A stretch of DNA of 55,815 bases from Microgenomates group bacterium GW2011_GWA2_44_7 (GTDB taxonomy: Bacteria; Patescibacteriota; Microgenomatia; GWA2-44-7). Every line of letters begins with the position of its first letter. Position 1 is the stretch's first letter. The translations under genes were made by a program, and so were the position numbers. The notes under the pieces were generated by a model, which did no database searches, was not told where the DNA came from, and saw nothing but the letters and a program-made list of their open reading frames with translations. The DNA is taken from contig LCJH01000001.1 of NCBI GenBank assembly GCA_000999595.1, positions 1-55,815 on the forward strand, given 5' to 3'. Of this stretch, positions 1-55,374 are shown piece after piece.

Positions 1-370
1 TTTTTCTCGCCCATTCATTTGCTTTTTGGATAATCTCCAACCCCGAATTCTTATCCAGATGTTCCAGTACTTCGATCATGATGACGGCATCAAAACTTTT
101 TTTGGGAAAGGAAATATCCTCAATTCGTTTACATATATAGCGATTGTGAATCTTCCTTTTTTTTGATCTGACAAGATATTCGCTAAAGGGCTCTACGCAA
201 ACGCTATGTTTTACTCCCGCACAGAAAGAGAGAGGAGACTGGGGACCGCAACCCAAATCTAAAACAGACTCACAACCGTTGAGCTCTGTCTTTAGGCAAT
301 GAACTGTTGTGTGGAAGAGCCGTTCCATAATGGGGTTGTGGTAAGCGGATCTAACTAAATCGTTAAACAT
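1..370 (-). CDS. Class I SAM-dependent methyltransferase, partial (C-terminus lies beyond the window start)
   Basis: Not in the ORF track because it is truncated. My minus-strand translation from the ATG at 370-368 reads MFNDLVRSAYHNPIMERLFHTTVHCLKTELNGCESVLDLGCGPQSPLSF...KKSFDAVIMIEVLEHLDKNSGLEIIQKANEWARK. It has LDLGCG (motif I) and FDAV..IEVLEHL, typical of Rossmann-fold methyltransferases. Confidence 0.7.
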   Translation of the reverse strand, partial: MFNDLVRSAYHNPIMERLFHTTVHCLKTELNGCESVLDLGCGPQSPLSFCAGVKHSVCVEPFSEYLVRSKKRKIHNRYICKRIEDISFPKKSFDAVIMIEVLEHLDKNSGLEIIQKANEWARK

Positions 371-383
371 GATAAAACATCCC

Positions 384-1100
384 CTATCGGAAAATCTTTC
401 TTGCTTTGATGGTAATAAATTGGCTGTGTGTGGGCTCAAGCCGACCTAAAAATGCCGGTAAGGGGAAATAACCTGCACCCATTGTGTCTTCCGGGGCAAA
501 TCCGTGTTTGGCAAACAGTTCCTCCAGGGCCCGTATGGCAAGTACTCTGGTATGCATCCAACTTTTTGATTCAATCGGACGACCACGGCTCAGAGCAAAC
601 CGATTGCCCAATCCCCCTCCGGAAACAACACTTATGTTGGCAAGACTAAAGGGTTGCCAGCCAAGCAACAGAGAGCAGATATTACTCCAGCTAGCTAAGT
701 TCTCCGTTGAGACGATACAATATCCACCAACCCTAAGAACGCGGTTTATCTCCTTGACAAAATTATCCAGGTCCCACAGGTGCTCAATGACTTGGTTCGC
801 ATGAACACAATCAAAGAAGTTGTCAGGGAAAGGAAATATTTTATTCAGGTCTCCCTTTTTTGCTTTCACTCCACGTCTTTGCGCTTCTTTCAGCGATTTT
901 TCACTGACATCCACTCCAAATAAACTTCTCGTTCCAATTTTTTTTCCCAGTTGAATTGTCCAATTACCATCGTTGCAACCAAGATCTAAGAGCTTTGCAC
1001 TTTCGGATACTTGTAACAACGATAAAATATTCGCTTTATTCAAGGACATACTTTCATCCCAAATTCTTTGCATGAAACCTCTAATGATAGGCACTTTCAT
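384..1100 (-). CDS. Class I SAM-dependent methyltransferase
   Basis: 238 aa ORF with LLDLGCNDGNWT (motif I), FDCVHANQVIEHLWDLDNF and RVLRVGGYCIVSTEN (Methyltransf_11-like). Its stop is 13 nt upstream of the next gene's start. Confidence 0.85.
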   Translation of the reverse strand: MKVPIIRGFMQRIWDESMSLNKANILSLLQVSESAKLLDLGCNDGNWTIQLGKKIGTRSLFGVDVSEKSLKEAQRRGVKAKKGDLNKIFPFPDNFFDCVHANQVIEHLWDLDNFVKEINRVLRVGGYCIVSTENLASWSNICSLLLGWQPFSLANISVVSGGGLGNRFALSRGRPIESKSWMHTRVLAIRALEELFAKHGFAPEDTMGAGYFPLPAFLGRLEPTHSQFITIKARKIFR

Positions 1101-1143
1101 AGGAAATAATTGTTATTAGGACAATCACTGAGAACAACGTTTG

Positions 1144-3381: not shown

Positions 3382-3400
3382 TTTTTATAAAAAAATCTGC

Positions 3401-4405
3401 TTAATTAAACTTTAGCTGTTTTTCAGGAATATTCGGGCGAGCAAGTTTTGCTTTGTAGTTATCGACTAGATATCGAAGTAGTGACCGCGGAGTAAGAATT
3501 GTTCCGAGAGAAAAAAACCAAAATGCGGGAGAGAGTATATTCCTCCACCTTAGTTTTAACATAACGAGAATTTCCCTATATAAAATAAATGGGGTTTGTC
3601 CGTAATTTTTTAGTTGGATCAGTCCTAAATAATTCTGAAGCATGTGATCCTTGGCTATTCTCCTGACCGAGTTAAACTCTGTTTCCCTGAAGACGGTATC
3701 AAACATCTTCATCCAAGAGAGGGTAGGAGAAACGGAATAGATCTTTGGTTTGGATCGCGTCTGGCTTACAGAAATACCGATGGCCACGGTGTAATCTTTC
3801 AGAAAGACACAGCTTGATCGCTTGAGAATTTCCATAAAGGGATAGATATGAGCGGGGAACACTTCATGGTGAAAATGGGTAAAAAGGTCACGGCGATAGG
3901 CAAGCCCGGATAGTTGTCCGACACTTTCGATAATGGGAATTATCTTGAGGGGTGTTTTTTTTATATCAATATTCCGGTCTTTGCGGGGATCTATCGGAGG
4001 AATATGCCTGACAGGTTTTGTAGGATCGGTATCAAACCAGTAATACGCCCTTGTCACCACCCCTACCTGAGGATCTCTACAAAATGCATGAACAGTTTTT
4101 GTGATGCCGTCATTGATCAATATATCGTCATGAGCCATAAGATAGATAATCTCTCCTTTTGCTAACTTTTCCAGTTGTTGAAGATTCCTACCGTAGCCTA
4201 AATTATGTTTGTTTTTCTGCACCCGGAGTTTACTAAAGCGAAAAGACCTAATTATACTTATCGTTTCATCACTGGAAGCATCGTCACTTATGACAATCTC
4301 TACATTTTGGTAGCTTTGTTTTTTTAGCGATTCCAATAGCGGTCGAATAATCTTGGCCGAATTGTAAGTAGGGATACAAATACTAACGAGCGGATTTGAG
4401 CGCAT
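3401..4405 (-). CDS. GT2 (GT-A fold) glycosyltransferase
   Basis: 334 aa. N-terminus VSICIPTYNSAKIIRPLLESLKKQSYQNVEIVISDDASSDETISI, with an acidic motif at YLMAHDDIL. Overlaps the upstream gene by 23 nt. Confidence 0.8.
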   Translation of the reverse strand: MRSNPLVSICIPTYNSAKIIRPLLESLKKQSYQNVEIVISDDASSDETISIIRSFRFSKLRVQKNKHNLGYGRNLQQLEKLAKGEIIYLMAHDDILINDGITKTVHAFCRDPQVGVVTRAYYWFDTDPTKPVRHIPPIDPRKDRNIDIKKTPLKIIPIIESVGQLSGLAYRRDLFTHFHHEVFPAHIYPFMEILKRSSCVFLKDYTVAIGISVSQTRSKPKIYSVSPTLSWMKMFDTVFRETEFNSVRRIAKDHMLQNYLGLIQLKNYGQTPFILYREILVMLKLRWRNILSPAFWFFSLGTILTPRSLLRYLVDNYKAKLARPNIPEKQLKFN

Positions 4406-5495: not shown

Positions 5496-5622
5496 CTTTC
5501 CTTTCTAATCAAAGTTTATAAATATCCTCATTCTCTCTTCTTGGTGATTCAAAATTATATATTTTAAATGTAATATCTTTTAGTTATCAATGTCAAAATA
5601 AAAAGTCAAGTTCTATCCATTC
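5496..5622 (-). promoter_or_regulatory. AT-rich intergenic region with candidate sigma70-type promoter(s) and an RBS for 4383..5495
   Basis: One of the few real gaps in the cluster. The minus strand reads ...CTTGACTTTTTATTTTGACATTGATAACTAAAAGATATTACATTTAAAATATATAATTTTG...GATTAGAAAGGAAAGATG. It has two TTGAC(T/A) boxes, several TAnnnT boxes and an AGGA-type Shine-Dalgarno about 8 nt before the ATG. No transcription start can be fixed from sequence alone. Confidence 0.3.
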
Positions 5623-7313: not shown

Positions 7314-7316
7314 AAA

Positions 7317-8285: not shown

Positions 8286-8978
8286 AATTCAATACCTGAA
8301 ACTATCGGTGTAAGCCGGTAGGGGAAGTCTCCCCAAAATCCTCTGGACATATAATAAGGGAGTGAAGCTACGAAGACAAACTAACGCGGTTTACTTCTGC
8401 GAATATCACCCAGTGTTTCCGATAACAAAGAACAAATCAAAAGGCACATTGAGCAGCAGAGTGAAGAGGATTTTGGGCAAGCGAAGCTTGAAGTGTGAGA
8501 AAAACCGGTTGCACAAGCTGCCGATAGTTCATTTATACAGTAAGCTCGCGAATTTCTTTATAGCCTCGGTCCTTATAAATAAACTTATTCTTTACTGGAT
8601 CAAAAATATTTGAGGACAACACGTTAACCTTTTTTGTTTTTTTTGAAAAAAAAGAGAGCAACATTGCCCGATGCGTTTCACCTTGTTGTACAATCATTAT
8701 CTAAGGCTAATTATGCTTTCCTTTCATCCAGGCAAACCCGACATTGAAACCCATAACTCCAGAATAAATGGCATCTTAATAAAGCATAAATTTCGCTGCC
8801 ATTTATTGGCAAGCTCATATACCCTAGGATCATTGCTATTGTCAACGACAAACGGTTCATGGCTTTAAATAACGACCTTTCTCCTGACCTAATAAGACGC
8901 AGGATATTCTAATAGCCGCGTGGCCCAAGTCCGGTGACAACGTTAATCATCATTCTTGGGGTTGCTTTAAGAGTTTTA
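8286..8978. other. 0.69 kb gap with no convincing gene (possible decayed gene remnants plus a promoter region)
   Basis: No minus-strand ORF of 60 aa or more. My minus-strand reading gives only short open stretches. One is MMINVVTGLGPRGY-TAG-NILRLIRSGERSLFKAMNRLSLTIAMILGY.... In another frame there is EPFVVDNSNDPRVYELANKWQ, reminiscent of the VVDNgStD segment of GT2 enzymes. Homopolymer runs (T and A tracts) lie at about 8630-8655. Confidence 0.4.
8351..8379 (-). promoter_or_regulatory. Candidate sigma70-type promoter for 7317..8285 and downstream genes
   Basis: The minus strand has TTGTCT (8379-8374), a 17 nt spacer and TATTAT (8356-8351), about 65 nt upstream of the ATG at 8285. This is a pattern match only. 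Confidence 0.2.
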
Positions 8979-10076
8979 CTACTTCGCATCGACATAACTA
9001 TTCGCTGCCGAAAATATTTTCAATTTATAGCTCTTTTTACTTAGCAATTTAACTATTTCCTCATCATAGACCACTCGTGATGCTTGAATTCTTCTCCTTT
9101 CCCTTAGAGTATCAGGAAAAGTATGAAGGTTCCAACTAACCGCACTTAAAACTGAATACGACAGATCGGGTCGTCTCTTTATTAAGAAATACAACATTTC
9201 CCCCAGCTCTAATACTAGATATCGTGGTAGCACCCAAAAAAGTGTTTCTAGGGCATAATTTTTTATTAACATTCTAAGTGAATTTCGTTCGCTTAAGTAC
9301 CTTGTTCTCACTTTTCCCAGCTTCCCAAGAGATGGTGAGATATGGTGATAAAGAAAAGATCGAGGATTAGCAATTATCTTATAACCGAGAAGGCGAACTC
9401 TCCAGGATAAATCAATATCATCCGACAGCCCCCAAAACTTACCGTCAAAGCCACCTGCCTCATTAAATAGTTCTCGAGAAATAATAAAAGATCCCCCATA
9501 GGAAAAGAAAACCTCTTGAATTTCTTTCGGGTATTTATCAAAGGGCTTCCATGGATCATGTTGCATACCAAACCCATACATATCCAACTCTCCACCGGCA
9601 TTATCAATGTAATAAATTCCTGTATTTGGATCTTTATCATGCCGAACCAGGACGCTAGTACAGATTCCGACTGAGCTGTCGCTTGTAATCCCTCGCATCA
9701 ACTCCGAGACGCAGTTCTTGTCAAACTTCATGTCCTCACTCATGAGCACAACATAGTTCTCTCGCGTTCTGGCAACGGCATAATTACTAATCCCGGCTGG
9801 CCCAAGGTTTCTTGAAGACTTAATTATCTTCACTTTGGGATACTTACGTCTAACGTATTCCACACTGTTGTCTGTAGAAGCGTCGTCAGCGAGATATATT
9901 TGGTAGTTCGGATACTTCTGTCTTAAAAGTGATCCGAGTGACTCATCAACAAGACTTTTGCCGTTGTAATTCAGCACGATAACCGCAACTGAGGGGTATT
10001 TAATCCCTCTTTCAAAAGATTTCGTCATGTCATTTCTTAGCAGATTGATAAACAATTCTACTTTTCTTGTTAACAC
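8979..10076 (-). CDS. GT2 glycosyltransferase, COG1216/WbbL-like
   Basis: 365 aa with VAVIVLNYNGKSLVDESLGSLLRQKYPNYQIYLADDASTDNSVEY and LSDDIDLSWRVRLLGYKI. The true start is probably the internal Met of MTKSFERG (about 10028), which removes the 47 nt overlap with the upstream gene. Confidence 0.8.
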   Translation of the reverse strand: MLTRKVELFINLLRNDMTKSFERGIKYPSVAVIVLNYNGKSLVDESLGSLLRQKYPNYQIYLADDASTDNSVEYVRRKYPKVKIIKSSRNLGPAGISNYAVARTRENYVVLMSEDMKFDKNCVSELMRGITSDSSVGICTSVLVRHDKDPNTGIYYIDNAGGELDMYGFGMQHDPWKPFDKYPKEIQEVFFSYGGSFIISRELFNEAGGFDGKFWGLSDDIDLSWRVRLLGYKIIANPRSFLYHHISPSLGKLGKVRTRYLSERNSLRMLIKNYALETLFWVLPRYLVLELGEMLYFLIKRRPDLSYSVLSAVSWNLHTFPDTLRERRRIQASRVVYDEEIVKLLSKKSYKLKIFSAANSYVDAK

Positions 10077-10860: not shown

Positions 10861-10884
10861 ATTTAAGTATACTAACCAAAGAGC

Positions 10885-11595: not shown

Positions 11596-11604
11596 TAATA
11601 GATT

Positions 11605-13336: not shown

Positions 13337-13342
13337 AAGACC

Positions 13343-14938
13343 ATGAAAATTGCTATTTCTTATCCTCCCATTGTGAACAAACGCGGTCAGACGGCGATGG
13401 TCTCCCAAAATCGTAATGTTCAATATTTTAAATATCCGACCTACCTTCTACCCGTAATATATGCCCAAGCGGCTACCTGGCTTAAAAACTTGGGCTTTGA
13501 GGTCCGTTGGGACGATGGCAACAGCCAACGAAAGACATACAAACAATGGTTTGACCAGTTAGTCGCCTGGCAACCAGACATTGTTGTTTTGGAAAGTACT
13601 ACCCCGGTAATGAATTTCTACTGGCAAACAACTAATGATCTAAAAAGGGCTCTCCCTAAGACAATTTTCATTATGACCGGCTATCACTCCGTGCGTAGGC
13701 CAAATGAGACTTTAGACAAATCTGCTGTCGATATCGTTTTAAAAAGCAATCACGTCGACTTTGTTCTTGCCAAGCTAATCCCATATATCGCCAAACACAA
13801 CAACTGGCGGCGGACCTGCACGGTTGAAGGGCTCACCATTCGAGTGGATAAAAAAAGAGTTAGAGACACCGGTGCTTTTCGCCAAGTAGAACCGCTAGAT
13901 AATTCGCCTCTTGTTGGCCGGGATCTGGTCGGATGGAAAAATTACGCCTATGAAAATGGAAACTTTCTCCAAACCCCGGGCACCTACGCGACGAGTGTTA
14001 TTCGCGACTGTATGTTTGGGAAATGCACTTTCTGCCGCTATAACGGTCCTGATTTGACTTTCTCAAAAATGTCTGTCGAGAAAAGTCTGGATGAATATCA
14101 GATGCTTATCGAAAAATACGGCGTTAAGGAAATTTTCGATGATTCTGGTGTCTGGTATAGAGGTGCAGATGCCAGAAGATTTGCTCAAGGGATAATTGAT
14201 CGTGGGTTGCATAAAAAGGGCTGCTATTTTGGGTTTAACACTCGTTTTGAATATCTTGATGAAGAAACCATCAAACTGTTAGCAGAAGCAAATTTCCGGT
14301 TTGTCCTTATTGGTCTTGAGGCTGCCAGCAACGAGACCCTTCGCCGTTTAAACAAAGGCTACCAAAATGATTACATTGTCCCCTGTCTTACCTGGATGAA
14401 AAAATACGGACTCCACCCTCACATGACTGTTATGGTCGGATACTACTGGGAGACGCAAGAAATGCTTGATGAAACTGTCCGATTCGTAAAAGAACTTATG
14501 TCTTCCGGGCTAACCCGATCGATACAAGTGACCCTCTGTACCCCGCTTGATTACACGCCTTATCACATTGAGTGTATTACTAAGAAAGTCCTGCTGGCCA
14601 AAAGCTATGACGATTTTGACATGAGCAAGCTCATTGTTAAGACCCCTATCCCTCACGAGAAATACTACGAAGCGATAAGAGAGATGTATGGTTTCGGTTT
14701 CAGTCCCCAATTTATCTTTAGGCAAGTACTTTTCCTTTTAACGTTTCGCAAGCGAGACTGGCAGTTTTTATTTATCTATGGCTGGCGGGCAATAAGGAGA
14801 TTAACGAATCATTACTATGATCTGACAATTCACAGCCGAAAAGGCGCAAAACCGATGGGGATTATTCAAAGGATTGCCGTTTTCTGGGTCGAGAAGATGG
14901 CTTCCCACTTCGAGACTCGACCACAGATCTCCTCTTAG
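13343..14938 (+). CDS. B12-binding-domain radical SAM enzyme (class B-like)
   Basis: 531 aa. The N-terminus has a B12-binding-like Rossmann pattern (KIAISYPP..., WLKNLGFEVRWDD, PDIVVLESTTP, IFIMTGYH, VDIVLKSNH). The cluster motif is RDCMFGKCTFCRY, and core motifs include EIFDDSG and VLIGLEAASNETLRRLNKG. The start is 6 nt after the FNR gene's stop. Confidence 0.75.
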   Translation: MKIAISYPPIVNKRGQTAMVSQNRNVQYFKYPTYLLPVIYAQAATWLKNLGFEVRWDDGNSQRKTYKQWFDQLVAWQPDIVVLESTTPVMNFYWQTTNDLKRALPKTIFIMTGYHSVRRPNETLDKSAVDIVLKSNHVDFVLAKLIPYIAKHNNWRRTCTVEGLTIRVDKKRVRDTGAFRQVEPLDNSPLVGRDLVGWKNYAYENGNFLQTPGTYATSVIRDCMFGKCTFCRYNGPDLTFSKMSVEKSLDEYQMLIEKYGVKEIFDDSGVWYRGADARRFAQGIIDRGLHKKGCYFGFNTRFEYLDEETIKLLAEANFRFVLIGLEAASNETLRRLNKGYQNDYIVPCLTWMKKYGLHPHMTVMVGYYWETQEMLDETVRFVKELMSSGLTRSIQVTLCTPLDYTPYHIECITKKVLLAKSYDDFDMSKLIVKTPIPHEKYYEAIREMYGFGFSPQFIFRQVLFLLTFRKRDWQFLFIYGWRAIRRLTNHYYDLTIHSRKGAKPMGIIQRIAVFWVEKMASHFETRPQISS

Positions 14939-18789: not shown

Positions 18790-18814
18790 AAGGTCTTACT
18801 GCTCTATTCTACGG

Positions 18815-25179: not shown

Positions 25180-25195
25180 TTTTTATTATTTGCTA

Positions 25196-26995: not shown

Positions 26996-27075
26996 GGTCT
27001 AATTATCGCACTTTATGGGACTTAAGTGGATCCCTCACCCAAAGCCATAAGACTCACTCCCCAGGCAGAAATTCC

Positions 27076-43286: not shown

Positions 43287-43321
43287 TTTTACATCAGCTT
43301 TAACGTCGGGAGCAAAAGGAG

Positions 43322-46517: not shown

Positions 46518-46572
46518 GACTTTGATATTATTGTATCTCCGAATGGCTAATCTCCGGGAATTCGGCGAAGGA

Positions 46573-49652: not shown

Positions 49653-49653
49653 C

Positions 49654-50400: not shown

Positions 50401-50418
50401 TTGTTCACAGTTATAAGT

Positions 50419-51909
50419 CTATTTTATACGAGTTCGTTGTTCTACAGTAATTCCTCCAAAGGTGGCTACTTGGTCAACCCTCCCTATTTTCTTTTGGCGG
50501 GTAAGCCACGCGGCAAGTCTTTCCGGATGAGGTACATCGACTTCGTAGATAGTATATAGCTTAGGAGTCAATGCGGTTGAGGGCAAAAGCAAATGGGAAG
50601 GCTTAGTTCCTAACCATTTGAATAAATAGTCATATGCGTGTGGAATGACCGGAGGCACATAGACATCGGTATTATATGGTTCACCCTCCTGTTTGGCTCG
50701 CTGTAAAACCCAGTTAACCGCTTGTTTTTCGTTTCCAAGAACGACATTAACCGGACCATCGGTCCCAGCTACCAGGTAATTTCTAATAAGAGGAAGATTT
50801 AACCAAATGAAAAGAAGCATAAAGACGATAAAGAGCGCCTTGCCGAATAAATATTTCGTCCACCAAGCGGTTAGAACTGAGACAAGGAGGACAAAAACCA
50901 AATAAATACCTGTTAAATAGTAATCCCAGACATACCCCGAATTACCTTGATAAAAAAGAAGGCCTATCAAGGGCGTTAACAGCCATAATAATAGTAGTTT
51001 TATTCCGTCTGATTTTAACCGTGATCTGAAAAGCACTAATGATCCGGCGACACTGATTAGCATGAAATTCGCAACAGGAACATCGCTTGCAACAATTTTT
51101 AACCATAAAGCTTGCCAATAATAATTTAGCCTCGACCCGAGAACAGCAAAGAGATCGTGTCGGAAGCTTTGTTCGCTTATTAGAAATCGATAAAAAGACT
51201 TGATCATTAAAGAATCGTGTCGAAGATCAAATAAGGCTTGTGGAAGAAGGGTCAGAATAAACAAGAATAGGGAAAAAATCAAGAGATAGCCTTTGGGAGC
51301 TTTTTTGCGTTGCCATGTCAAGAAAATCAAGATTGCCGGAAGGAAAAAGAAAGCGCTGGCGGCTTCAAACTGTAGGCTGACACCCAAGCCAAGCGAGACA
51401 ACCAACCAATACTTGAGGTTTCCTTTTATTATCTGCCATAATCCCCAAATCATTATCGAGCTTGACAACATAAGCTGTGTCGGATTGGATAACCAACGAC
51501 TTGCGACTACTAACCAATAAGAAAAACCTCCCAAGGCAATAAATATATAAGCGGTTCTCCTACCAAAAATTTCATCAGCTAATTTCGCGGTCATAATAAG
51601 AGCCAATACGGTGGTGGCAGAGAGATAAATTGCCGGAAAGACGGGGTCCCCACTACCGAGCCAATACCACGGAAGCAGCGTAAAATAATAAAGTGGACCT
51701 AAAAATATTCCTTCTATACCAGTGGTCGGACCTATTAAAAACAGTTTATGGTTAACAATAAGATCTCGTATTGTTAAGGCATCCCTTCCCTGATCAAAAT
51801 AAAAACCGAGAAGTTCATCTAACCGATAAACTCTAATAAGGAAAGCGACTGATAAAAGAACTCCCATCAATCCCCAGTTTCTGCCCCATCGCAATATCTT
51901 AGGAAACAT
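50419..51909 (-). CDS. GT-C-like polytopic membrane protein, ArnT-like (family C, member 2)
   Basis: 496 aa. The first loop is YRLDELLGFYFDQGRDALTIRDLIVNHKLFLIGPTTGIEGIFLGPLYYF. C-terminal soluble domain of about 100 aa. Confidence 0.65.
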   Translation of the reverse strand: MFPKILRWGRNWGLMGVLLSVAFLIRVYRLDELLGFYFDQGRDALTIRDLIVNHKLFLIGPTTGIEGIFLGPLYYFTLLPWYWLGSGDPVFPAIYLSATTVLALIMTAKLADEIFGRRTAYIFIALGGFSYWLVVASRWLSNPTQLMLSSSIMIWGLWQIIKGNLKYWLVVSLGLGVSLQFEAASAFFFLPAILIFLTWQRKKAPKGYLLIFSLFLFILTLLPQALFDLRHDSLMIKSFYRFLISEQSFRHDLFAVLGSRLNYYWQALWLKIVASDVPVANFMLISVAGSLVLFRSRLKSDGIKLLLLWLLTPLIGLLFYQGNSGYVWDYYLTGIYLVFVLLVSVLTAWWTKYLFGKALFIVFMLLFIWLNLPLIRNYLVAGTDGPVNVVLGNEKQAVNWVLQRAKQEGEPYNTDVYVPPVIPHAYDYLFKWLGTKPSHLLLPSTALTPKLYTIYEVDVPHPERLAAWLTRQKKIGRVDQVATFGGITVEQRTRIK

Positions 51910-51911
51910 GC

Positions 51912-53381
51912 TTAAGGTTTGTTATGTATCAGTTTATAAAGAGTTACCCCCCAGGGAAAAGACCGAGAACTGTCAATCTTTGCCCAGCCAAAATTCGCTA
52001 TTTCGGCTTTAGGATGACCTACAGGATTGCACTGGGATACCGGGAGTTCACAAACGACAAATAACTGTTCGGTTAAGTCAGGTGGCATCTCTTTTAGAGG
52101 TGCACCCCATTTGCGCAAAATAAAGCGGTAGCTTTCATCATAATTTTGATTCGCAATCATGCCCAAATTAAAATCTTTCCCTCCCGATGACTGTACTATT
52201 TCACGACTAATAACCTGGGCATGCTGATAAAGATCATAAGGTGTTGCCAAAAGAGGACTGGCTGAAAGGTTTAAATAAAGCAAGCCCATAAACGCGACTA
52301 TTACCGCTACCCTAGTTACTTTGGCTGTTTCCCAAAGGTAATCTATAAGAGCCCCCGCGATTAAGAAAATTGCCGGGAAAATAAAGCCATAGTAATGATC
52401 AAAAAGAGATTGTTTATAAAGGCCTAACCCGATAATACCAAAGCTAACCCAGGTAACTAATAACCTTAAGCTGGTAACTTTATACCTTCTGATAAAAAGG
52501 ACAATCGTTCCAAAAAGAATCACGCTTGAGGTGATAGTGCCGAGATGTTTCGAACCGGCAGTTAGAAGGGACGTTGTCATTCTTTCTAGAATAGGTAGCA
52601 GATTGGGAACAGCCTTGTAAACCTTAAAGTTGACGGTCGTTTGACGTTGGGAGAAGAAAGTAAGCATTGCACGCGAATTTAAAAATTGATGCCTGATATC
52701 AAATAAAACTATCGGCGACATCAGCAAAATAAATACTATAAACGAGATCGCTGTTGAATGAAGCAGGGCTTGCCTGTCTACTTTTTCCTTTTTGACAGCA
52801 AGAAGCCACCAAACAAGAATCGTCGGTAATAATAAAAGTCCGAGGTAGTGCGCTTGGATTGCAAAGGCAAGTGAGATAAAGCAGATTAATAACCACCTAA
52901 ATTTGCCACCATTAAACACTCGCCAAATTGCATATATAGCCAAAAGGGCAAAAAAGGGCATGACATTTGGATTCCATGAAGATCGTGAATAGATAATTAC
53001 CGTTGGAGAAAGTGCATATAATATGGCGGCGGTAGAGCCGGCCATGGGTGAAAACCATTCTCTCCCAATTAGATATATCATCAAAACAGTGGCGACACCT
53101 ATTAGGGCTACAAAAACTGACGGACCGACAGGTGAGAGGCCGGCGAGAACGAAAGAGGGTAATATTAGGTAGTAGTAAAGGGGGCCGTTGTACATATGCC
53201 CGACAGAGGTCCCCGGCCCGATTAATGTTAATTTCTTCTCTACTACCAACTTCCAAAGCACAAGTGCATCTCTGCCTTCATCCCCCTGAAACTGCATATA
53301 CCGATCGATTTGATAAAGCCTGAGAAATGCTGCAAGAAGAACAAGGACGATCAGCGCAGACAACTTACCACCAATAAACAT
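51912..53381 (-). CDS. GT-C-like polytopic membrane protein, ArnT-like (family C, member 3)
   Basis: 489 aa. The first loop is YQIDRYMQFQGDEGRDALVLWKLVVEKKLTLIGPGTSVGHMYNGPLYYY. Tandem with its paralog, separated by 2 nt. Confidence 0.65.
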   Translation of the reverse strand: MFIGGKLSALIVLVLLAAFLRLYQIDRYMQFQGDEGRDALVLWKLVVEKKLTLIGPGTSVGHMYNGPLYYYLILPSFVLAGLSPVGPSVFVALIGVATVLMIYLIGREWFSPMAGSTAAILYALSPTVIIYSRSSWNPNVMPFFALLAIYAIWRVFNGGKFRWLLICFISLAFAIQAHYLGLLLLPTILVWWLLAVKKEKVDRQALLHSTAISFIVFILLMSPIVLFDIRHQFLNSRAMLTFFSQRQTTVNFKVYKAVPNLLPILERMTTSLLTAGSKHLGTITSSVILFGTIVLFIRRYKVTSLRLLVTWVSFGIIGLGLYKQSLFDHYYGFIFPAIFLIAGALIDYLWETAKVTRVAVIVAFMGLLYLNLSASPLLATPYDLYQHAQVISREIVQSSGGKDFNLGMIANQNYDESYRFILRKWGAPLKEMPPDLTEQLFVVCELPVSQCNPVGHPKAEIANFGWAKIDSSRSFPWGVTLYKLIHNKP

Positions 53382-53384
53382 AGA

Positions 53385-54122
53385 TTAATTACTACGAAGC
53401 GAGAGCCATAAATCTACCGTCCCTTTAACTGCTCGCAGTATTATTTTTGGATGAGCACCTCGTTCTCTACGATTTTTATCACCCTGATCTGGAAAGTGGG
53501 ATACCGGGACTTCTGAAATTTTGAGTCCCGCTCTTTTGGCTTTAACTAATAGTTCTGTACTTATCATCGCCGTGTTGGTTTTTAGTCTCGGTAATTTAGC
53601 CAATGAGCTCCTTTTAATCATCTTAAAGGCACAGTCGATATCTTTAAACCAAATACCAAAAAAGATGAGATCCCAAAATCTCAGCGCTTGGGCAAGCAAA
53701 ACCCTAGGCAAGCCTTCGGCTCTATTAGCTCGATATCCGATGACAAGATCATTATTGATAATTAGTTGTATAAATTTAACCACTTCACCAAAGTCAAACT
53801 GTCCGTCACCATCGGTAAAAATAATTAGATCTTTCTTAGAACTGTAAAAGCCGGCGATCAATGCTCCGCCATAGCCTCGGTTGGGAGAATGGTGAATCAC
53901 CTTAATTCGCTTATTCTTAGCGGCTAAGGCATCGGCTATCAGACCAGTTTTGTCAACTGAGCCGTCATCAACGATTATGACTTCATAATCTGTGTCTAAA
54001 CTTTCTAATTCTTTAATTGCCAAAGAGATAGTCCTTTTTATGTTTGATTCTTCATTATAAGCGGGGAAAAAAACTGAGATACTATTTTTCGTGGCCATTT
54101 TGAAATAAGTATAACATGCCAA
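53385..54122 (-). CDS. GT2 polyprenyl-phosphate glycosyltransferase (ArnC/GtrB-like)
   Basis: 245 aa with ISVFFPAYNEESNI, VIIVDDGSVDKTGLIA, NRGYGGALIAGF, FTDGDGQFD, VIGYR and DIDCAFKMI. The likely true start is the Met of MATKNS (about 54098). Confidence 0.75.
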   Translation of the reverse strand: MACYTYFKMATKNSISVFFPAYNEESNIKRTISLAIKELESLDTDYEVIIVDDGSVDKTGLIADALAAKNKRIKVIHHSPNRGYGGALIAGFYSSKKDLIIFTDGDGQFDFGEVVKFIQLIINNDLVIGYRANRAEGLPRVLLAQALRFWDLIFFGIWFKDIDCAFKMIKRSSLAKLPRLKTNTAMISTELLVKAKRAGLKISEVPVSHFPDQGDKNRRERGAHPKIILRAVKGTVDLWLSLRSN

Positions 54123-54243
54123 CTTCTTGTTTTTAACTTACAAAGGTCTTAATACGGCTTTTATTCCCTGTTCCAAGTAATAATTTGGAAGTCGTTAACG
54201 TTTACCTAGGATCGCTTATTTGACCAAAGAAATCCTGACTTGG

Positions 54244-55374
54244 TTATTTTTTTCCAGTCTGCTTCCAAACGATCCGTGTGTACATCAGCCAATTGTATGG
54301 GAGCACCAAAAAAACAATAATGAAAGGCAGATAGATTTGACGGTACTGTGTCCCAAAAACCGAAGCGAGGGCAGTTCCAGTGATGGTAGTAATTATGAGT
54401 GCCCCGGCAGAAGTCAAATTAAATTGCATAAACTTCCTTACAATGTCTAATATCTTAGTGAAACTTTCTTCTTTAAAAGTCCAAAGGTTATTCCAAGTAA
54501 AATTCGAGATAATCCCCGCTTCTGTTGCTATCGACCAAACCAGAACCTCGACGATATTCATCCGACCCAGTATCCAAATGCCCAGAGAAGTGACAATATA
54601 GCCTAGAAAACCGACAATACCGAATTTTATAAATTTCTTTACTTTGGGCTCTTGGGCTCTAGTCGTTATAATAAATAAAAGCGTTCGGACAATGTACTCC
54701 AGCTTTGGCATTTTCGATTTCCCTGCCGTACGATCGACAAAATGAAAGGGTACCTCCGCTACCTTTGCTTTGTAAAACAGCGCCCAGTAAAGAGATGAGA
54801 GTTGAAAAGTATAATTGCGATATTCCGTCACGTGCGGTTTAAATTTTTCATAGACCCATCGACGAAGTAACCGATATCCTCCTGTCCAATCTTTAATATC
54901 GAAACGGGTAAATAAAACCATGGCAACAATATTGCCAATCACCGAGAGAAATTTTCGGTGAATACCCCAACTTTGAGGAATTCCTCCCCCGGGGATATAC
55001 CTTGAACCAAGGACCAAATCATAGCCCTCGTCTAATTTTCTTATCATTTGAGGAATCTTATCCGGATCATGAGACAAATCCGCATCCATTTCAAAAACCG
55101 CATCGGCGCCTTTTTTCTCAAATGCATAAGCCATGGCAACCAAATAGGCACCGCCTAAGCCAACTTTGTGCTTATTAACAACCAAGTCTAAATTGGGGAC
55201 AAATTGCATTAAATCCCGAACGATATCAGCTGTGCCGTCTGGAGACGTGTCGTCAACGACAATAATTCCTAAATCATGCCCCTTGACCTTGCTAAATGCC
55301 CGTCTTATTCCTTCAATAGATTTAACAATATTTTCCGCTTCATTGTATGTGGGGACAATTACAAGAATCTTCAT
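54244..55374 (-). CDS. Polyprenol-monophosphate mannose/hexose synthase (DPM1/Ppm1-like GT2) fused to a C-terminal GtrA-like membrane domain
   Basis: 376 aa. The catalytic part has ILVIVPTYNEAENI, IIVVDDTSPDGTADIV, GLGGAYLVAM, MDADLSHDPDKIP and LVLGSRYIPGGG. The C-terminal ~130 aa form four helices with KFIKFGIVGFLGY and ISNFTWNNLWTFKE (GtrA family pattern). Confidence 0.8.
   Translation of the reverse strand: MKILVIVPTYNEAENIVKSIEGIRRAFSKVKGHDLGIIVVDDTSPDGTADIVRDLMQFVPNLDLVVNKHKVGLGGAYLVAMAYAFEKKGADAVFEMDADLSHDPDKIPQMIRKLDEGYDLVLGSRYIPGGGIPQSWGIHRKFLSVIGNIVAMVLFTRFDIKDWTGGYRLLRRWVYEKFKPHVTEYRNYTFQLSSLYWALFYKAKVAEVPFHFVDRTAGKSKMPKLEYIVRTLLFIITTRAQEPKVKKFIKFGIVGFLGYIVTSLGIWILGRMNIVEVLVWSIATEAGIISNFTWNNLWTFKEESFTKILDIVRKFMQFNLTSAGALIITTITGTALASVFGTQYRQIYLPFIIVFLVLPYNWLMYTRIVWKQTGKK

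What the first reader, a model, noticed from the sequence alone, without database searches (positions are those of the whole stretch)
1..55374. One continuous >55 kb same-strand glycosylation super-cluster: 38 predicted glycosyltransferases among 46 genes
By my motif-based assignments the window holds 17 GT2, 3 GT4 and 18 polytopic GT-C-like genes, plus 4 SAM methyltransferases and one Wzx-like flippase. These 43 genes run in a row on the minus strand, mostly with overlapping or abutting stop and start codons. The left edge is still inside the cluster (a partial methyltransferase); the right edge is housekeeping trmD. Several expected components are absent from the window. There is no nucleotide-sugar synthesis gene and no priming phosphoglycosyltransferase (WecA/WbaP type). 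There is no chain-length regulator and no obvious acceptor gene (S-layer, pilin or teichoic-acid backbone). Typical O-antigen, capsule or teichoic-acid loci are several-fold smaller and dominated by cytoplasmic GTs. Here membrane GT-C enzymes make up almost half of the GTs. If the host is a small-genome uncultivated bacterium, which the families and packing suggest, this locus would take up a substantial share of its coding capacity.
Basis: partly seen in the sequence, partly recalled or inferred. Interest (0 to 1): 0.8.

Follow-up and report, generated by a model that had tools for sequence, protein, structure and literature searches.

The report
Giant membrane-glycosyltransferase locus in a tiny bacterium
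A groundwater bacterium from the small-genome Microgenomates group keeps at least 83 kb of sugar-adding genes in one place, about half of them membrane enzymes that work outside the cell membrane; related species share the locus, which probably builds an uncharacterised surface sugar coat.

Summary
Pfam places 17 ORFs in GT2 and 3 in GT4. It also finds 4 SAM methyltransferases, one Wzx flippase and 13 polytopic GT-C-type proteins. The other 5 polytopic proteins join GT-C through paralogy, a PIG-M profile match or a predicted structure.

Three genes look split only because the window lacks four ~100-bp segments that independent assemblies contain.

The organism is Microgenomates bacterium GW2011_GWB1_44_8 (Rifle aquifer). 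On a 109-kb contig the cluster continues at least 27.7 kb past the left edge. That stretch adds two more Wzx, a Wzy_C protein, YfhO, an AftD-like 1066-aa protein and more GT4/GT2/PMT_2 genes. The total is at least 83 kb and about 68 genes.

49 related species (Daviesbacteria, Woesebacteria, Shapirobacteria, Amesbacteria) carry syntenic versions.

Best model: an enlarged multi-component transmembrane glycosylation system. DPMS/ArnC-like GT2s load polyprenyl phosphate. Cytoplasmic GTs and methyltransferases extend some carriers, Wzx flips them, and GT-C enzymes assemble the glycan outside the membrane. Priming by GT-A enzymes, as in Lactococcus Wps, would explain the missing phosphoglycosyltransferase.

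A Pfam-less GT-C family with an oligosaccharyltransferase-like fold is linked to Wzx by adjacency and one fusion. The product and acceptor remain unknown.

The parts
1..370 (-). SAM methyltransferase, C-terminal part cut by the window edge (226 aa in full)
   Evidence: Methyltransf_11, 43 bits; the full gene is seen in L001 10731-11411
384..1100 (-). SAM methyltransferase
   Evidence: Methyltransf_11, 75.6 bits
1144..3381 (-). 745-aa polytopic GT-C-like protein with an extra N-terminal extracytoplasmic region
   Evidence: About 14 TM segments; PMT_2 24.3 bits, just under the 26.1 cut-off; no PDB or NCBIfam match
3401..4405 (-). GT2
   Evidence: PF00535, 95 bits
4383..5495 (-). GT4
   Evidence: Glycos_transf_1, 90 bits
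5623..6516 (-). GT2
   Evidence: PF00535, 69 bits
6516..7313 (-). SAM methyltransferase
   Evidence: Methyltransf_11, 62 bits
7317..8285 (-). GT2 with 2 C-terminal TM segments
   Evidence: PF00535, 73 bits; TM count
8286..8978 (+). ORF-free gap holding a decayed IS200-like transposase remnant; 98 bp are missing from the window at 8421/8422
   Evidence: Translation of the full region from L001; Y1_Tnp E 0.014, sub-threshold; missing segment shown
8979..10076 (-). GT2
   Evidence: PF00535, 79 bits
10030..10860 (-). GT2
   Evidence: PF00535, 38.6 bits
10885..11595 (-). SAM methyltransferase
   Evidence: Methyltransf_11, 74 bits
11605..12621 (-). GT2
   Evidence: PF00535, 71.5 bits
12677..13336 (+). 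FNR-like FAD/NAD(P) oxidoreductase, conserved partner of the radical-SAM gene
   Evidence: FAD_binding_6 plus NAD_binding_1; found next to the radical-SAM gene in most of 41 loci from many phyla
13343..14938 (+). B12-binding radical SAM enzyme, presumed to modify a sugar
   Evidence: Radical_SAM 62 bits plus B12-binding; 63-78% identical across phyla; nearest NCBIfam models HpnJ and BchE lie far below their cut-offs
14941..15984 (-). GT2 with 3 TM segments
   Evidence: PF00535, 45 bits
15990..16811 (-). GT2 of the polyprenyl-phosphate-sugar synthase type
   Evidence: PF00535, 89.6 bits; paralogue of 53385, 49654 and 54244; weak NCBIfam matches that include PgfS, ArnC and PpgS, all far below cut-off
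16808..17956 (-). GT4
   Evidence: Glycos_transf_1, 83 bits
17968..18789 (-). GT2
   Evidence: PF00535, 59 bits
18815..20515 (-). GT-C, family B (PMT_2)
   Evidence: PMT_2, 29.6 bits; acidic 'ADE' motif after TM1
20478..21830 (-). GT-C-like, family C
   Evidence: 8 TM segments; no Pfam hit; BLASTP E 3e-16 to the PMT_2 protein at 51912
21823..23514 (-). GT-C, family A (YfhO / PTPS_related)
   Evidence: YfhO, 29.9 bits
23515..25179 (-). GT-C, family B (PMT_2)
   Evidence: PMT_2, 46.9 bits
25196..26995 (-). GT-C-like, family D (GT87 / PIG-M-like)
   Evidence: 9 TM segments; BLASTP E 1e-19 to 38426; the family profile matches PIG-M at E 7e-13
27076..28773 (-). GT-C, family B
   Evidence: PMT 19.8 bits, sub-threshold; BLASTP E 5e-54 to 18815
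28721..30391 (-). GT-C, family A (PTPS_related)
   Evidence: PTPS_related, 33.5 bits; orthologues in 40 related loci
30375..32174 (-). GT-C, family A (PTPS_related)
   Evidence: PTPS_related, 53 bits; about 50%-identical orthologues in 49 species
32155..33776 (-). GT-C, family B. One 577-aa gene, split in the window because 112 bp are missing at 33274/33275
33773..35425 (-). GT-C, family B (PMT_2)
   Evidence: PMT_2, 53.5 bits
35409..36689 (-). GT-C-like, family D
   Evidence: 6 TM segments; BLASTP E 2e-5 to 38426; member of the A2 profile that matches PIG-M
36695..37573 (-). GT2
   Evidence: PF00535, 89.6 bits
37539..38429 (-). GT2
   Evidence: PF00535, 66.5 bits
38426..39700 (-). GT-C-like, family D
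   Evidence: GT87 19.3 bits, sub-threshold; the family profile matches PIG-M
39681..40672 (-). GT4. One 359-aa gene, split in the window because 112 bp are missing at 40183/40184
40654..41412 (-). GT2
   Evidence: PF00535, 60.8 bits
41409..42329 (-). GT2
   Evidence: PF00535, 90 bits
42357..43286 (-). GT2
   Evidence: PF00535, 81 bits
43322..45028 (-). Pfam-less GT-C-fold enzyme resembling oligosaccharyltransferases, genetically coupled to Wzx
   Evidence: AF2 model pLDDT 87; Foldseek top matches AglB/STT3/PglB at E 1e-8, also DPY19, AftA and ArnT. No Pfam or PDB sequence match. 1669 representative clusters. Next to Wzx in 28 of 36 loci. Fused to Wzx in P0289
45009..46517 (-). Wzx-type flippase
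   Evidence: Polysacc_synt_3, 152 bits
46573..48258 (-). GT-C, family A (PTPS_related)
   Evidence: PTPS_related, 40.4 bits
48259..49652 (-). GT-C (PMT). One 503-aa gene, split in the window because 118 bp are missing at 48640/48641
   Evidence: PMT 33-34 bits, above the 22.7 cut-off; intact in L008
49654..50400 (-). GT2 of the polyprenyl-phosphate-sugar synthase type, directly upstream of the PMT gene
   Evidence: PF00535, 96 bits; best NCBIfam resemblance is ArnC, far below cut-off
50419..51909 (-). GT-C-like, family C
   Evidence: 7 TM segments; BLASTP E 3e-29 to 51912
51912..53381 (-). GT-C, family C (PMT_2)
   Evidence: PMT_2, 50.6 bits
53385..54122 (-). GT2 of the polyprenyl-phosphate-sugar synthase type
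   Evidence: PF00535, 96 bits; best PDB matches are ArnC, DPMS and GtrB
54244..55374 (-). Polyprenyl-phosphate hexose synthase: GT2 fused to a GtrA/DPMS membrane domain; first gene of the cluster
   Evidence: PF00535 98.5 bits plus GtrA_DPMS_TM 50 bits; full-length match to P. furiosus dolichol-phosphate-mannose synthase 5mlz, E 4e-40
55430..55815 (+). trmD (partial); housekeeping gene marking the right border of the cluster
   Evidence: tRNA_m1G_MT, 98 bits; housekeeping genes follow in L007

Best explanation
The window is the right-hand two thirds of a chromosomal locus of at least 83 kb. The locus makes cell-envelope glycoconjugates in the CPR bacterium Microgenomates GW2011_GWB1_44_8. It works as an enlarged, many-branched multi-component transmembrane glycosylation system.

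Step 1 (shown by homology). Four GT2 enzymes of the DPMS/ArnC/GtrB type (54244, 53385, 49654, 15990) load single sugars from nucleotide sugars onto polyprenyl phosphate at the inner face of the membrane.

Step 2 (inferred). Some of these lipid-monophosphate sugars are flipped as they are, through the GtrA-like membrane domain fused to 54244 or through Wzx. Outside the membrane they serve as donors.

Step 3 (inferred by analogy with Lactococcus WpsA/B-G-J/I and Streptococcus GacI-L). Other carriers are extended in the cytoplasm by the remaining 13 GT2 and 3 GT4 enzymes. The four methyltransferases and the B12-radical-SAM/reductase pair modify them. Wzx then flips them. This route needs no WecA/WbaP-type priming enzyme.

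Step 4 (GT-C identity shown; roles inferred). Outside the membrane, the 18 GT-C-fold enzymes of four paralogous families plus singletons add, branch, polymerise or ligate sugars on the growing glycan. The oligosaccharyltransferase-like GT-C at 43322-45028 is genetically coupled to Wzx. It is the best candidate for moving the flipped oligosaccharide as a block onto its acceptor.

The acceptor is not identified. It could be a wall-linked polysaccharide, surface proteins or a lipid. With three Wzx flippases and a Wzy_C protein across the whole locus, several products or sub-chains are likely.
For: - Family assignments.
- Lipid-sugar synthases: 54244 matches archaeal DPMS over its full length (E 4e-40). 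53385 matches ArnC, DPMS and GtrB best.
- Gene pairing: orthologues of these GT2s sit next to a GT-C gene in 58 of 73 cases across 49 related loci. Characterised pairs such as CsbB-YfhO and CsdA-CsdB are arranged the same way (PMC8035078 and PMC9574508).
- Catalytic motif: in 17 of the 18 GT-C proteins an acidic motif follows TM1 (DE, DD, HPD or HD). In 1144-3381 the GT-C-like region starts only near residue 365 and was not inspected. Acidic residues in that position are invariant in the family alignments: D45, D32 and D62.
- Wzx coupling: Wzx is adjacent to the 43322 family in 28 of 36 loci. One 1639-aa protein fuses Wzx to the 43322 domain.
- Conservation: orthologues of about 50% identity occur in syntenic order in 49 species of Daviesbacteria, Woesebacteria, Shapirobacteria and Amesbacteria. 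In those loci 365 of 584 labelled genes are GT-C-like.
- Extension to the left: two more Wzx, Wzy_C, YfhO, PMT_2 genes, an acetyltransferase and a 1066-aa protein whose distant homologues carry PF11847, which I recall (untested) to be the AftD-type GT-C family.
- Sugar supply: relatives have rmlBCD and gmd beside the cluster.
Against: - No biochemical, expression or glycan-structure data exist, so every enzymatic role rests on homology or gene context.
- No acceptor, undecaprenyl-phosphate supply or nucleotide-sugar gene was seen in the 83 kb examined in this genome.
- About 9 kb at the far left of the contig could not be read. A priming phosphoglycosyltransferase could lie there or elsewhere in the genome, which would make the GT-A priming idea unnecessary.
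- The oligosaccharyltransferase resemblance of 43322 is fold-level only (TM-score about 0.5). It matches AftA, ArnT and DPY19 about equally well, so block transfer is a guess.
- The Wzx fusion is a single predicted protein and could be a gene-calling or sequencing error.
- Five of the 18 polytopic proteins have no direct family hit.
Confidence: 0.6

Rival explanations
1. The locus is mainly a protein-glycosylation system. The PMT/PMT_2-type and oligosaccharyltransferase-like GT-C enzymes attach sugars or oligosaccharides to secreted proteins such as S-layer proteins, pilins or serine/threonine-rich regions. This would resemble actinobacterial O-mannosylation, Streptococcus Pgf or archaeal Agl pathways. 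The many paralogues would serve different protein targets or glycan positions.
For: - PMT and PMT_2 models are the commonest hits among the GT-C genes.
- The best structural matches of 43322 are the N-oligosaccharyltransferases AglB, STT3 and PglB.
- 54244 matches DPMS, the enzyme that supplies Dol-P-Man to PMTs.
- Among the weak NCBIfam resemblances of the loading GT2s are PgfS and AglJ.
- Kantor et al. 2013 suggested glycoproteins or a glycosylated S-layer for CPR bacteria (PMC3812714).
Against: - PMT_2-type enzymes in Gram-positive bacteria mostly decorate teichoic acids and wall polysaccharides (Table 2 of PMC8035078). The family name therefore does not predict a protein acceptor.
- No STT3 Pfam hit was found for 43322. 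I did not see a WWDYG motif in the alignment consensus, but I did not search for it formally.
- No candidate acceptor protein is encoded in the locus.
- Twenty or more cytoplasmic GTs, three Wzx and a Wzy_C protein point to long or repeated glycans rather than short protein-linked ones.
Confidence: 0.22
2. The 'super-cluster' is not one pathway. It is a chromosomal gathering of several independent glycan systems: at least three Wzx-dependent pathways plus stand-alone sugar-decoration modules. They lie together for co-regulation or by history, and each makes a separate product.
For: - The whole locus holds three Wzx flippases and one Wzy_C protein.
- Several features subdivide it: an IS200-like remnant in a 693-bp gap, an opposite-strand cassette (12677-14938) and an opposite-strand YfhO gene.
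- Conservation is uneven. The core from about 28.7 to 53.4 kb is conserved, whereas the region from 0.4 to 12.6 kb and the 1066-aa protein have few or no close relatives.
- Gene order is rearranged between Daviesbacteria-type and Woesebacteria-type loci.
Against: - This view mostly refines the best explanation rather than replacing it.
- The conserved side-by-side position of the modules in 49 species, their tight packing and their shared strand suggest functional linkage.
- In Lactococcus, separately made chains are joined into a single wall polysaccharide (PMC9574508).
Confidence: 0.4
3. The locus builds a membrane-anchored lipoglycan comparable to mycobacterial lipomannan or lipoarabinomannan. 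GT-C enzymes would extend a glycolipid primer outside the membrane.
For: - Family D resembles GT87 and PIG-M, which are mannosyltransferases acting on lipid-anchored glycans.
- A 1066-aa GT-C lies to the left; its distant homologues carry PF11847, which I recall to be the AftD-type GT-C family.
- A DPMS-type polyprenyl-phosphate hexose synthase is present.
Against: - No PimA/PimB-type or phosphatidylinositol-related genes were recognised.
- No genes for decaprenyl-phosphate-arabinose synthesis were recognised.
- The family resemblances are distant and below Pfam cut-offs.
Confidence: 0.12
4. The array is an artefact or is decaying. It would be either a chimeric metagenome assembly or a run of pseudogenised paralogues.
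For: Three genes look split in the window, and a 693-bp stretch has no ORF.
Against: - Independent assemblies from several samples and assemblers are 100% identical to the window.
- The splits come from about 100-bp segments missing only from the window; the genes are intact elsewhere.
- Differences in one scaffold are runs of N.
- Paralogues are 24-35% identical with conserved motifs, and orthologues exist in 49 species.
Confidence: 0.02

Closest known systems
Multi-component (three- or four-component) transmembrane glycosylation systems of Gram-positive bacteria: CsbB/GtcA/YfhO, CsdAB/CflA, GacI-J-K-L, and the Lactococcus lactis Wps pathway (WpsA/B, WpsG, WpsI, WpsJ)
   Same: - A GT-A enzyme makes a polyprenyl-phosphate sugar.
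- A GtrA-type or Wzx-type flippase moves it across the membrane.
- A polytopic GT-C enzyme (often PMT_2 or YfhO, often with no Pfam hit) transfers it outside the membrane.
- The GT-A and GT-C genes are adjacent.
- In the Wps pathway an oligosaccharide is built on a monophosphate carrier without a phosphoglycosyltransferase, flipped by Wzx, and then polymerised and ligated by GT-C enzymes (PMC8035078, PMC9574508).
   Different: - Scale: known organisms have one to three such pairs scattered in 2-4 Mb genomes, and the cwps locus is about 25 kb (from memory). Here at least 18 GT-C genes lie in the window and about 23-24 in the whole locus.
- The GT-C families are lineage-specific.
- The organism is a CPR bacterium.
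- The acceptor polymer is unknown. No rhamnan or teichoic-acid backbone genes were seen in this genome's locus.
Mycobacterial and corynebacterial arabinogalactan and lipoarabinomannan assembly (EmbA/B/C, AftA-D, MptA-C, PimE, Ppm1)
   Same: - A major envelope polymer is built largely outside the membrane by a large set of GT-C enzymes that use polyprenyl-phosphate monosaccharide donors made by a Ppm1/DPMS-type GT2.
- GT87-like proteins are present, plus a 1066-aa protein whose distant homologues carry PF11847, which I recall to be the AftD family.
- AftA is among the structural matches of 43322.
   Different: - From memory, the mycobacterial genes are spread over a genome of about 4.4 Mb; here they are packed into one locus of a genome likely near 1 Mb.
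- No decaprenyl-phosphate-arabinose genes were recognised.
- Sequence relationships are remote, so convergence is as likely as common descent.
Archaeal Agl N-glycosylation clusters (AglB, AglD/AglJ, AglR, AglS)
   Same: - A DPMS/AglD-like GT2, a Wzx-like flippase and a GT-C enzyme cooperate to add a sugar outside the membrane.
- Several cytoplasmic GT2/GT4 enzymes and methyltransferases sit in the same cluster.
- From memory, AglS is a PTPS_related-type GT-C; I did not test this here.
- 54244 matches an archaeal DPMS best, and the fold of 43322 matches AglB best.
   Different: - No STT3 Pfam hit was found for 43322, and I saw no WWDYG motif in the alignment consensus.
- The host is bacterial.
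- There are many more GT-C paralogues.
- N-glycosylation of proteins has not been shown.
Wzx/Wzy-dependent O-antigen and capsule loci, including the very large Leptospira rfb loci
   Same: - A long, largely one-strand run of GT2 and GT4 genes, methyltransferases, an acetyltransferase, Wzx flippases and a Wzy_C-like protein.
- A variable periphery around a more conserved core.
   Different: - No initiating phosphoglycosyltransferase, no Wzz and no export machinery were found.
- No nucleotide-sugar genes lie in this genome's locus.
- About half of the coding sequence is GT-C enzymes, which are rare or absent in classical loci.

Membership tests
GT-C glycosyltransferase superfamily (Pfam clan CL0111) | Integral membrane protein with about 8-13 transmembrane helices | tested here: met
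   A hydropathy scan gives 6-14 segments for all 18 candidates. The AF2 model of 43322 shows a multi-helix membrane core. The TM count is crude (Kyte-Doolittle), not a topology predictor.
GT-C glycosyltransferase superfamily (Pfam clan CL0111) | Homology or fold similarity to established GT-C families | tested here: met
   - 10 proteins score above the Pfam cut-offs for PMT_2, PMT, YfhO or PTPS_related; 3 more are sub-threshold.
- Clan membership of these families is stated in PMC7801869.
- The family D profile matches PIG-M at E 7e-13.
- The fold of 43322 matches AglB, STT3, PglB, DPY19, AftA and ArnT.
- 20478 and 50419 are linked only through paralogy.
GT-C glycosyltransferase superfamily (Pfam clan CL0111) | Acidic (modified DxD) motif in the first extracytoplasmic loop | tested here: met
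   In 17 of the 18 proteins DE, DD, HPD or HD motifs follow TM1; 1144-3381, whose GT-C-like region starts near residue 365, was not inspected. Acidic residues there are invariant in the alignments: D45 (A1/A4), D32 (A2) and D62 (A3). The side of the membrane on which the loop lies was not computed.
GT-C glycosyltransferase superfamily (Pfam clan CL0111) | Uses lipid-phosphate-linked sugar donors | not testable with these tools
   This requires an enzyme assay. It is supported only by the neighbouring polyprenyl-phosphate-sugar synthase genes.
Multi-component transmembrane glycosylation system | GT-A enzyme that makes a polyprenyl-phosphate monosaccharide | tested here: met
   54244 matches DPMS 5mlz over its full length at E 4e-40. 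53385 matches ArnC, DPMS and GtrB best.
Multi-component transmembrane glycosylation system | GtrA-type or Wzx-type flippase | tested here: met
   A GtrA_DPMS_TM domain is fused to 54244 (50 bits). Wzx lies at 45009-46517 (152 bits). Two more Wzx genes lie left of the window.
Multi-component transmembrane glycosylation system | GT-C transferase encoded next to the GT-A gene | tested here: met
   In the window the pairs are 53385 with 51912 and 49654 with 48259-49652. In relatives, 58 of 73 orthologous GT2 genes are adjacent to a GT-C gene.
Multi-component transmembrane glycosylation system | Defined acceptor polymer (LTA, WTA, rhamnan or O-antigen) | not testable with these tools
   No acceptor-synthesis genes were recognised in the 83 kb examined.
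Wzx/Wzy-dependent O-antigen or capsule locus | Initiating phosphoglycosyltransferase (WecA/WbaP type) | tested here: not met
   No Bac_transf or Glycos_transf_4 (MraY/WecA) hit in any window ORF, nor among the called genes of the left extension. The rest of the genome was not seen.
Wzx/Wzy-dependent O-antigen or capsule locus | Wzx flippase together with a Wzy polymerase | tested here: inconclusive
   Wzx is present. A Wzy_C hit occurs only outside the window, at 31.5 bits against a cut-off of 31.7.
Wzx/Wzy-dependent O-antigen or capsule locus | Chain-length regulator and nucleotide-sugar genes in the locus | tested here: not met
   None are found in the window or the extension. Relatives have rmlBCD and gmd adjacent to the cluster.
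STT3/PglB/AglB oligosaccharyltransferases (considered for 43322-45028) | GT-C fold with a C-terminal extracytoplasmic domain | tested here: met
   Foldseek E 1e-8, TM-score about 0.5 to AglB, STT3 and PglB. A weak match (E 0.16) to the AglB C-terminal domain 3vu0.
STT3/PglB/AglB oligosaccharyltransferases (considered for 43322-45028) | Sequence membership (Pfam STT3) and the WWDYG motif | tested here: not met
   No STT3 hit in any of 34 family members even at E <= 1. No PDB sequence match. I saw no WWDYG in the alignment consensus, but I did not run a formal motif search. The protein is therefore not filed as an STT3 member.
Protein O-mannosyltransferase, GT39 (considered for 48259-49652) | PMT domain with a DE motif in loop 1 | tested here: met
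   PMT scores 33-34 bits against a cut-off of 22.7. The sequence 'VDEA' follows TM1.
Protein O-mannosyltransferase, GT39 (considered for 48259-49652) | Transfers mannose to Ser/Thr of proteins | not testable with these tools
   This requires biochemistry.

The most novel reading that the evidence does not exclude
Microgenomates, and perhaps a wider part of the CPR, build their main surface layer almost entirely outside the cytoplasmic membrane. More than 20 lineage-specific GT-C enzymes would form an assembly line that parallels mycobacterial arabinogalactan synthesis. Within it, the Pfam-less 43322 family would be a new class of bacterial oligosaccharyltransferase or ligase that hands Wzx-flipped oligosaccharides to the acceptor. 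On this reading the locus, perhaps 8% of a roughly 1-Mb genome, decides how these ultra-small cells attach to hosts and resist phages.
Probability: 0.3. Interest if true: 0.85.

Novelty: new variant of a known kind. Interest (0 to 1): 0.7.

Why it matters
CPR bacteria make up a large share of bacterial diversity. Their genomes are minimal, and they are thought to live attached to other cells. Their surface chemistry is essentially unknown: a 2024 review of the group that I searched does not mention glycans at all.

An organism of this kind devotes at least 83 kb and about 68 genes, possibly around 8% of its genome, to one glycan locus. The core of that locus is conserved across at least 49 species. 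This suggests strong selection on a complex surface glycan.

The locus offers concrete handles for experiments:
- a DPMS-type lipid-sugar synthase,
- four GT-C paralogue families,
- a Wzx-coupled GT-C family with an oligosaccharyltransferase-like fold, with 1669 representative clusters and no Pfam model.

These could be used for heterologous expression, glycan labelling in enrichment cultures and cryo-electron tomography. The locus also adds several unannotated GT-C families to the known repertoire.

Tried and rejected
Searches that found nothing or were uninformative:
- The metagenome-contig scan with the 1066-aa protein found nothing.
- The genome-contig scan with the same protein found nothing.
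- A genome scan with release factor 1 from the flank, meant to place the organism, returned only about 45%-identical hits from unrelated phyla. The organism name came instead from identical proteins.
- NCBIfam gave no match above any family cut-off.
- PDB sequence searches found nothing for the family A profile, the 43322 profile, the radical-SAM protein or 1144-3381.
- An AF2 model of family A built from the four window paralogues alone was poor (pLDDT 52). Its Foldseek hits were GT-C enzymes but only at E about 0.04, so I count them as weak.
- Profile-profile comparison of family A with the 43322 family gave 4% probability, so no detectable sequence relation.
- Rfam found no RNA family in the window.
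- Promoter-like and terminator-like sites are no more frequent than in shuffled sequence, so operon structure stays inferred from gene spacing.
- Nine literature searches found no description of this locus type.

Ideas considered and rejected:
- Pseudogene decay. The splits come from segments missing only in the window.
- Phase variation at homopolymer tracts. The differences in one scaffold are runs of N.
- Recent tandem duplication. Paralogues are only 24-35% identical.
- A mobile island. GC content stays between 0.38 and 0.44, the flank is housekeeping and relatives are syntenic.
- Membership of 43322 in the STT3 family. No sequence signature supports it.

Full report
**1. What is in the window**

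Listing ORFs of at least 100 aa gives an almost gap-free run on the minus strand. GC content stays between 0.38 and 0.44. I scanned all ORFs against Pfam.

- 17 ORFs pass the GT2 model PF00535.
- 3 are GT4.
- 4 are SAM-dependent methyltransferases; one is cut by the left edge at 1-370.
- 45009-46517 is a Wzx-type flippase (Polysacc_synt_3, 152 bits).
- 18 are polytopic membrane proteins with 6-14 predicted TM segments.
- The right edge is trmD on the plus strand from 55430.

The one interruption of the minus-strand run is a plus-strand pair. It consists of an FNR-like FAD/NAD oxidoreductase (12677-13336) and a B12-binding radical SAM enzyme (13343-14938).

Of 43 gene junctions, 17 overlap and 18 are 0-30 bp apart. 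Coding density is 97%. GT-C-type genes account for 28.9 kb of the 55.4 kb.

**2. Are the polytopic proteins GT-C enzymes?**

Ten score above the curated Pfam cut-offs for PMT_2, PMT, YfhO or PTPS_related. Three have sub-threshold hits to PMT_2, PMT or GT87. PMC7801869 lists these families as members of GT-C clan CL0111.

All-against-all BLASTP sorts most of them into four paralogue families, with two singletons:
- Family A: PTPS_related/YfhO-like (21823, 28721, 30375, 46573).
- Family B: PMT_2 (18815, 23515, 27076, 32155-33776, 33773).
- Family C: 50419, 51912 and 20478, with 48259-49652 loosely attached.
- Family D: 25196, 35409 and 38426.
- Singletons: 1144-3381 and 43322-45028.

Paralogues are only 24-35% identical, so the duplications are old.

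A profile of family D and its orthologues matches the solved GT-C enzyme GPI mannosyltransferase 1 (PIG-M) at E 7e-13.

The protein at 43322-45028 has no Pfam, NCBIfam or PDB sequence match. A model built from 34 homologues is confident (pLDDT 87, pTM 0.88). Its best PDB matches are the oligosaccharyltransferases AglB, STT3 and PglB (E about 1e-8, TM-score about 0.5). DPY19, AftA and ArnT follow.

In 17 of the 18 proteins an acidic motif lies shortly after the first TM helix. In 1144-3381 the GT-C-like region begins only near residue 365, and I did not inspect it. The corresponding residues are invariant in the family alignments. I therefore accept all 18 as GT-C-fold proteins. The evidence is weakest for 1144-3381, 20478 and 50419.

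**3. Artefacts in the window**

The window is 100% identical to contigs from several Rifle aquifer samples built with different assemblers. The exceptions are four segments that are absent from the window:
- 98 bp at 8421/8422
- 112 bp at 33274/33275
- 112 bp at 40183/40184
- 118 bp at 48640/48641

These gaps create three apparently split genes. In the other assemblies each is intact: a 577-aa PMT_2 protein, a 359-aa GT4 and a 503-aa PMT protein. One scaffold's further differences are runs of N. The missing pieces therefore look like scaffold gaps that were closed up. There is no evidence for pseudogenes or phase variation.

**4. Organism and true extent**

Proteins identical to those just left of the window are named in NCBI as coming from 'Microgenomates group bacterium GW2011_GWB1_44_8'.

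On a 109,174-bp ENA contig the cluster continues at least 27.7 kb beyond window position 1. From the window edge outwards, the additional genes are:
- GT2, two methyltransferases and GT4;
- a 1066-aa polytopic protein whose distant homologues carry PF11847, which I recall to be the AftD-type GT-C family;
- three further membrane proteins, one of which is a family B paralogue;
- Wzx, GT4, GT2 and a third Wzx;
- an opposite-strand YfhO of 766 aa;
- PMT_2 and two GT4 genes;
- a hexapeptide acetyltransferase, a 184-aa protein and a GT2;
- a Wzy_C-like protein (31.5 bits against a cut-off of 31.7);
- PMT_2 and two more GT4 genes.

The contig was still inside the cluster where my reach ended, about 9 kb from its start. 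The locus is therefore at least 83 kb with about 68 genes. Roughly 23-24 of them are GT-C-like.

Beyond trmD lie housekeeping genes: tsaE/tsaD, ftsEX, an M23 peptidase and a release factor.

Complete genomes of relatives are 0.98-1.08 Mb. If this genome is similar, the locus is about 8% of it. That figure is an inference; I did not see this genome's size.

**5. Conservation**

A scan of one genome per species found orthologues of 30375-32174 at about 50% identity in 49 species. They are annotated as Daviesbacteria, Woesebacteria, Shapirobacteria, Amesbacteria or 'Microgenomates'.

I labelled all ORFs in the 21-kb neighbourhoods by their best window homologue. Every neighbourhood is filled with the same families in recurring order: GT2, GT-C family C, GT2, GT-C family C, then three or four family A genes, sometimes a family D gene, then Wzx and the 43322 family. 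Of 584 labelled genes, 365 are GT-C-like.

Within the sampled neighbourhoods, the best-conserved window genes are:
- family A (28721, 30375);
- the 43322 family, Wzx, the PMT gene and its upstream GT2 (49654), and 51912;
- the reductase/radical-SAM pair and its neighbouring GT2 at 14941.

The cytoplasmic GT and methyltransferase genes between 0.4 and 12.6 kb have few close relatives. The 1066-aa protein has none. This is the pattern of a conserved assembly core with a variable periphery.

Some relatives carry rmlB, rmlC, rmlD and gmd directly beside the cluster. Deoxyhexoses are therefore likely components of the glycan in those species.

**6. How it most likely works**

The first gene, 54244-55374, matches the Pyrococcus furiosus dolichol-phosphate-mannose synthase over its full length, membrane domain included (E 4e-40). 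The gene at 53385-54122 matches ArnC, DPMS and GtrB best. The genes at 49654 and 15990 are paralogues of these. These are enzymes that load a single sugar onto polyprenyl phosphate.

In the window and in relatives, such GT2 genes sit directly beside GT-C genes: 58 of 73 cases. The characterised pairs CsbB-YfhO, CsdA-CsdB and GacI-GacL are arranged the same way (PMC8035078, PMC9574508). In those systems the lipid-linked sugar is flipped by a GtrA-type or Wzx-type protein. A GT-C enzyme then transfers it to a wall polymer outside the membrane.

The Lactococcus Wps pathway goes further. WpsA/B, which is a GT-A enzyme and not a phosphoglycosyltransferase, primes an oligosaccharide on undecaprenyl monophosphate. 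Cytoplasmic GTs extend it and the Wzx protein WpsG flips it. The GT-C enzymes WpsI and WpsJ then polymerise it and attach it to rhamnan.

That scheme fits this locus well. It accounts for many cytoplasmic GT2/GT4 genes and methyltransferases, for Wzx, for many GT-C enzymes, and for the absence of a WecA/WbaP-type primer.

The 43322 family is the best candidate for the block-transfer or polymerisation step. Three observations support this:
- It is adjacent to Wzx in 28 of 36 loci.
- One 1639-aa predicted protein fuses Wzx (41% identical to the window's Wzx), a secreted domain and the 43322 domain (33% identical).
- Its fold is closest to enzymes that transfer whole oligosaccharides.

What is shown: the family and fold assignments, the gene order, the conservation and the fusion. 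What is inferred: donor and acceptor identities, the order of reactions, and the role of 43322.

**7. Rival explanations**

- Protein glycosylation is a serious alternative or an additional role. The evidence includes PMT-type hits, the oligosaccharyltransferase-like fold and the DPMS. However, PMT_2 enzymes of Gram-positive bacteria mostly decorate wall polymers. No acceptor protein is encoded here.
- The locus may be several pathways placed side by side rather than one. Three Wzx genes, a transposase remnant, opposite-strand insertions and uneven conservation point that way. I regard this as a refinement of the main model.
- A lipoglycan product is possible but has little specific support.
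- Assembly artefact and gene decay are excluded (section 3).

**8. Comparison with what is known**

The locus works like the multi-component transmembrane glycosylation systems and meets their testable defining features. It resembles mycobacterial arabinogalactan and lipoarabinomannan assembly in its reliance on many GT-C enzymes, but no specific arabinan genes were recognised. It fails defining features of a classical Wzx/Wzy O-antigen or capsule locus: there is no primer, no Wzz and no sugar-nucleotide genes. The 43322 protein is not an STT3-family member by sequence.

The literature I could search contains only general remarks. Kantor et al. 2013 noted the abundance of glycosyltransferases in CPR genomes and suggested polysaccharides, glycoproteins or a glycosylated S-layer (PMC3812714). 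Kadnikov et al. 2020 counted 29 glycosyltransferase genes in a Microgenomates genome (PMC7143001). A 2024 review of the group does not mention glycans. I found no description of this conserved, GT-C-dominated mega-locus, nor of the 43322 family. That family has 1669 representative clusters and no Pfam model.

**9. Verdict**

This is a new, extreme variant of a known kind of system, not a new category. Interest is fairly high for three reasons: the scale relative to genome size, the conservation across a CPR superphylum, and the unannotated GT-C families. It is limited by the complete lack of product or expression data.

Noticed in passing
window junctions 8421/8422, 33274/33275, 40183/40184 and 48640/48641: The window lacks four segments of 98-118 bp that are present in otherwise identical independent assemblies. 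They are probably scaffold gaps that were closed up. They create three false split genes.
   Followed up: yes
window 12677-14938 (+); loci L062-L102: The two-gene cassette (FNR-like reductase plus B12-binding radical SAM) is unusually conserved. The radical-SAM protein is 63-78% identical in Gottesmanbacteria, Shapirobacteria, Nitrospinaceae, Pelagibacteraceae, Glassbacteria and an archaeal MAG. The cassette usually sits among GT2 and methyltransferase genes. No characterised equivalent was found; HpnJ and BchE models lie far below their cut-offs. It may be a widely exchanged sugar-modifying module.
   Followed up: partly
window 8286-8978 (+); full sequence in L001 2023-2815: The only long ORF-free stretch carries a frameshifted, stop-interrupted remnant resembling an IS200/IS605 transposase (…YHPVF…, …WYLGHFVSTVG…IKRHIEQQ). 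The Pfam Y1_Tnp hit is only E 0.014.
   Followed up: partly
proteins P0255-P0311; loci L013-L042 at about 18-20 kb: About a quarter of the best 43322-family members are long forms of about 1000-1160 aa. They carry an N-terminal secreted domain of about 450-560 aa with no Pfam model (weak DUF3863 hit). This long form follows Wzx in Daviesbacteria-type loci. The window's genome has the short form, and the domain was not found in the parts of the genome I could read.
   Followed up: partly
L188 10001-13201 (left of the window; protein P0121): A 1066-aa polytopic protein has a large extracytoplasmic middle region. Only 13 homologues turned up in 5.8 billion proteins, and the most distant of them carry PF11847. 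No close relative exists in the species-representative genomes.
   Followed up: partly
L016 45-3126 and equivalent positions in other Daviesbacteria-type loci: rmlB-like, rmlC, rmlD and gmd genes lie immediately beside the cluster in relatives. They are absent from the same flank in the window's genome, where trmD abuts the cluster.
   Followed up: yes
window 5496-5622: One of the few intergenic gaps over 100 bp contains two overlapping sigma-70-like sites (10 of 12 matches) on the minus strand, upstream of the GT4 gene at 4383-5495. This could be an internal promoter, but such sites are no more frequent in the region than in shuffled sequence.
   Followed up: no
window 18000-36000: AT skew on the plus strand is strongly positive (up to 0.23) across the block of GT-C genes. 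The likely cause is T-rich codons for hydrophobic residues on the coding (minus) strand.
   Followed up: no
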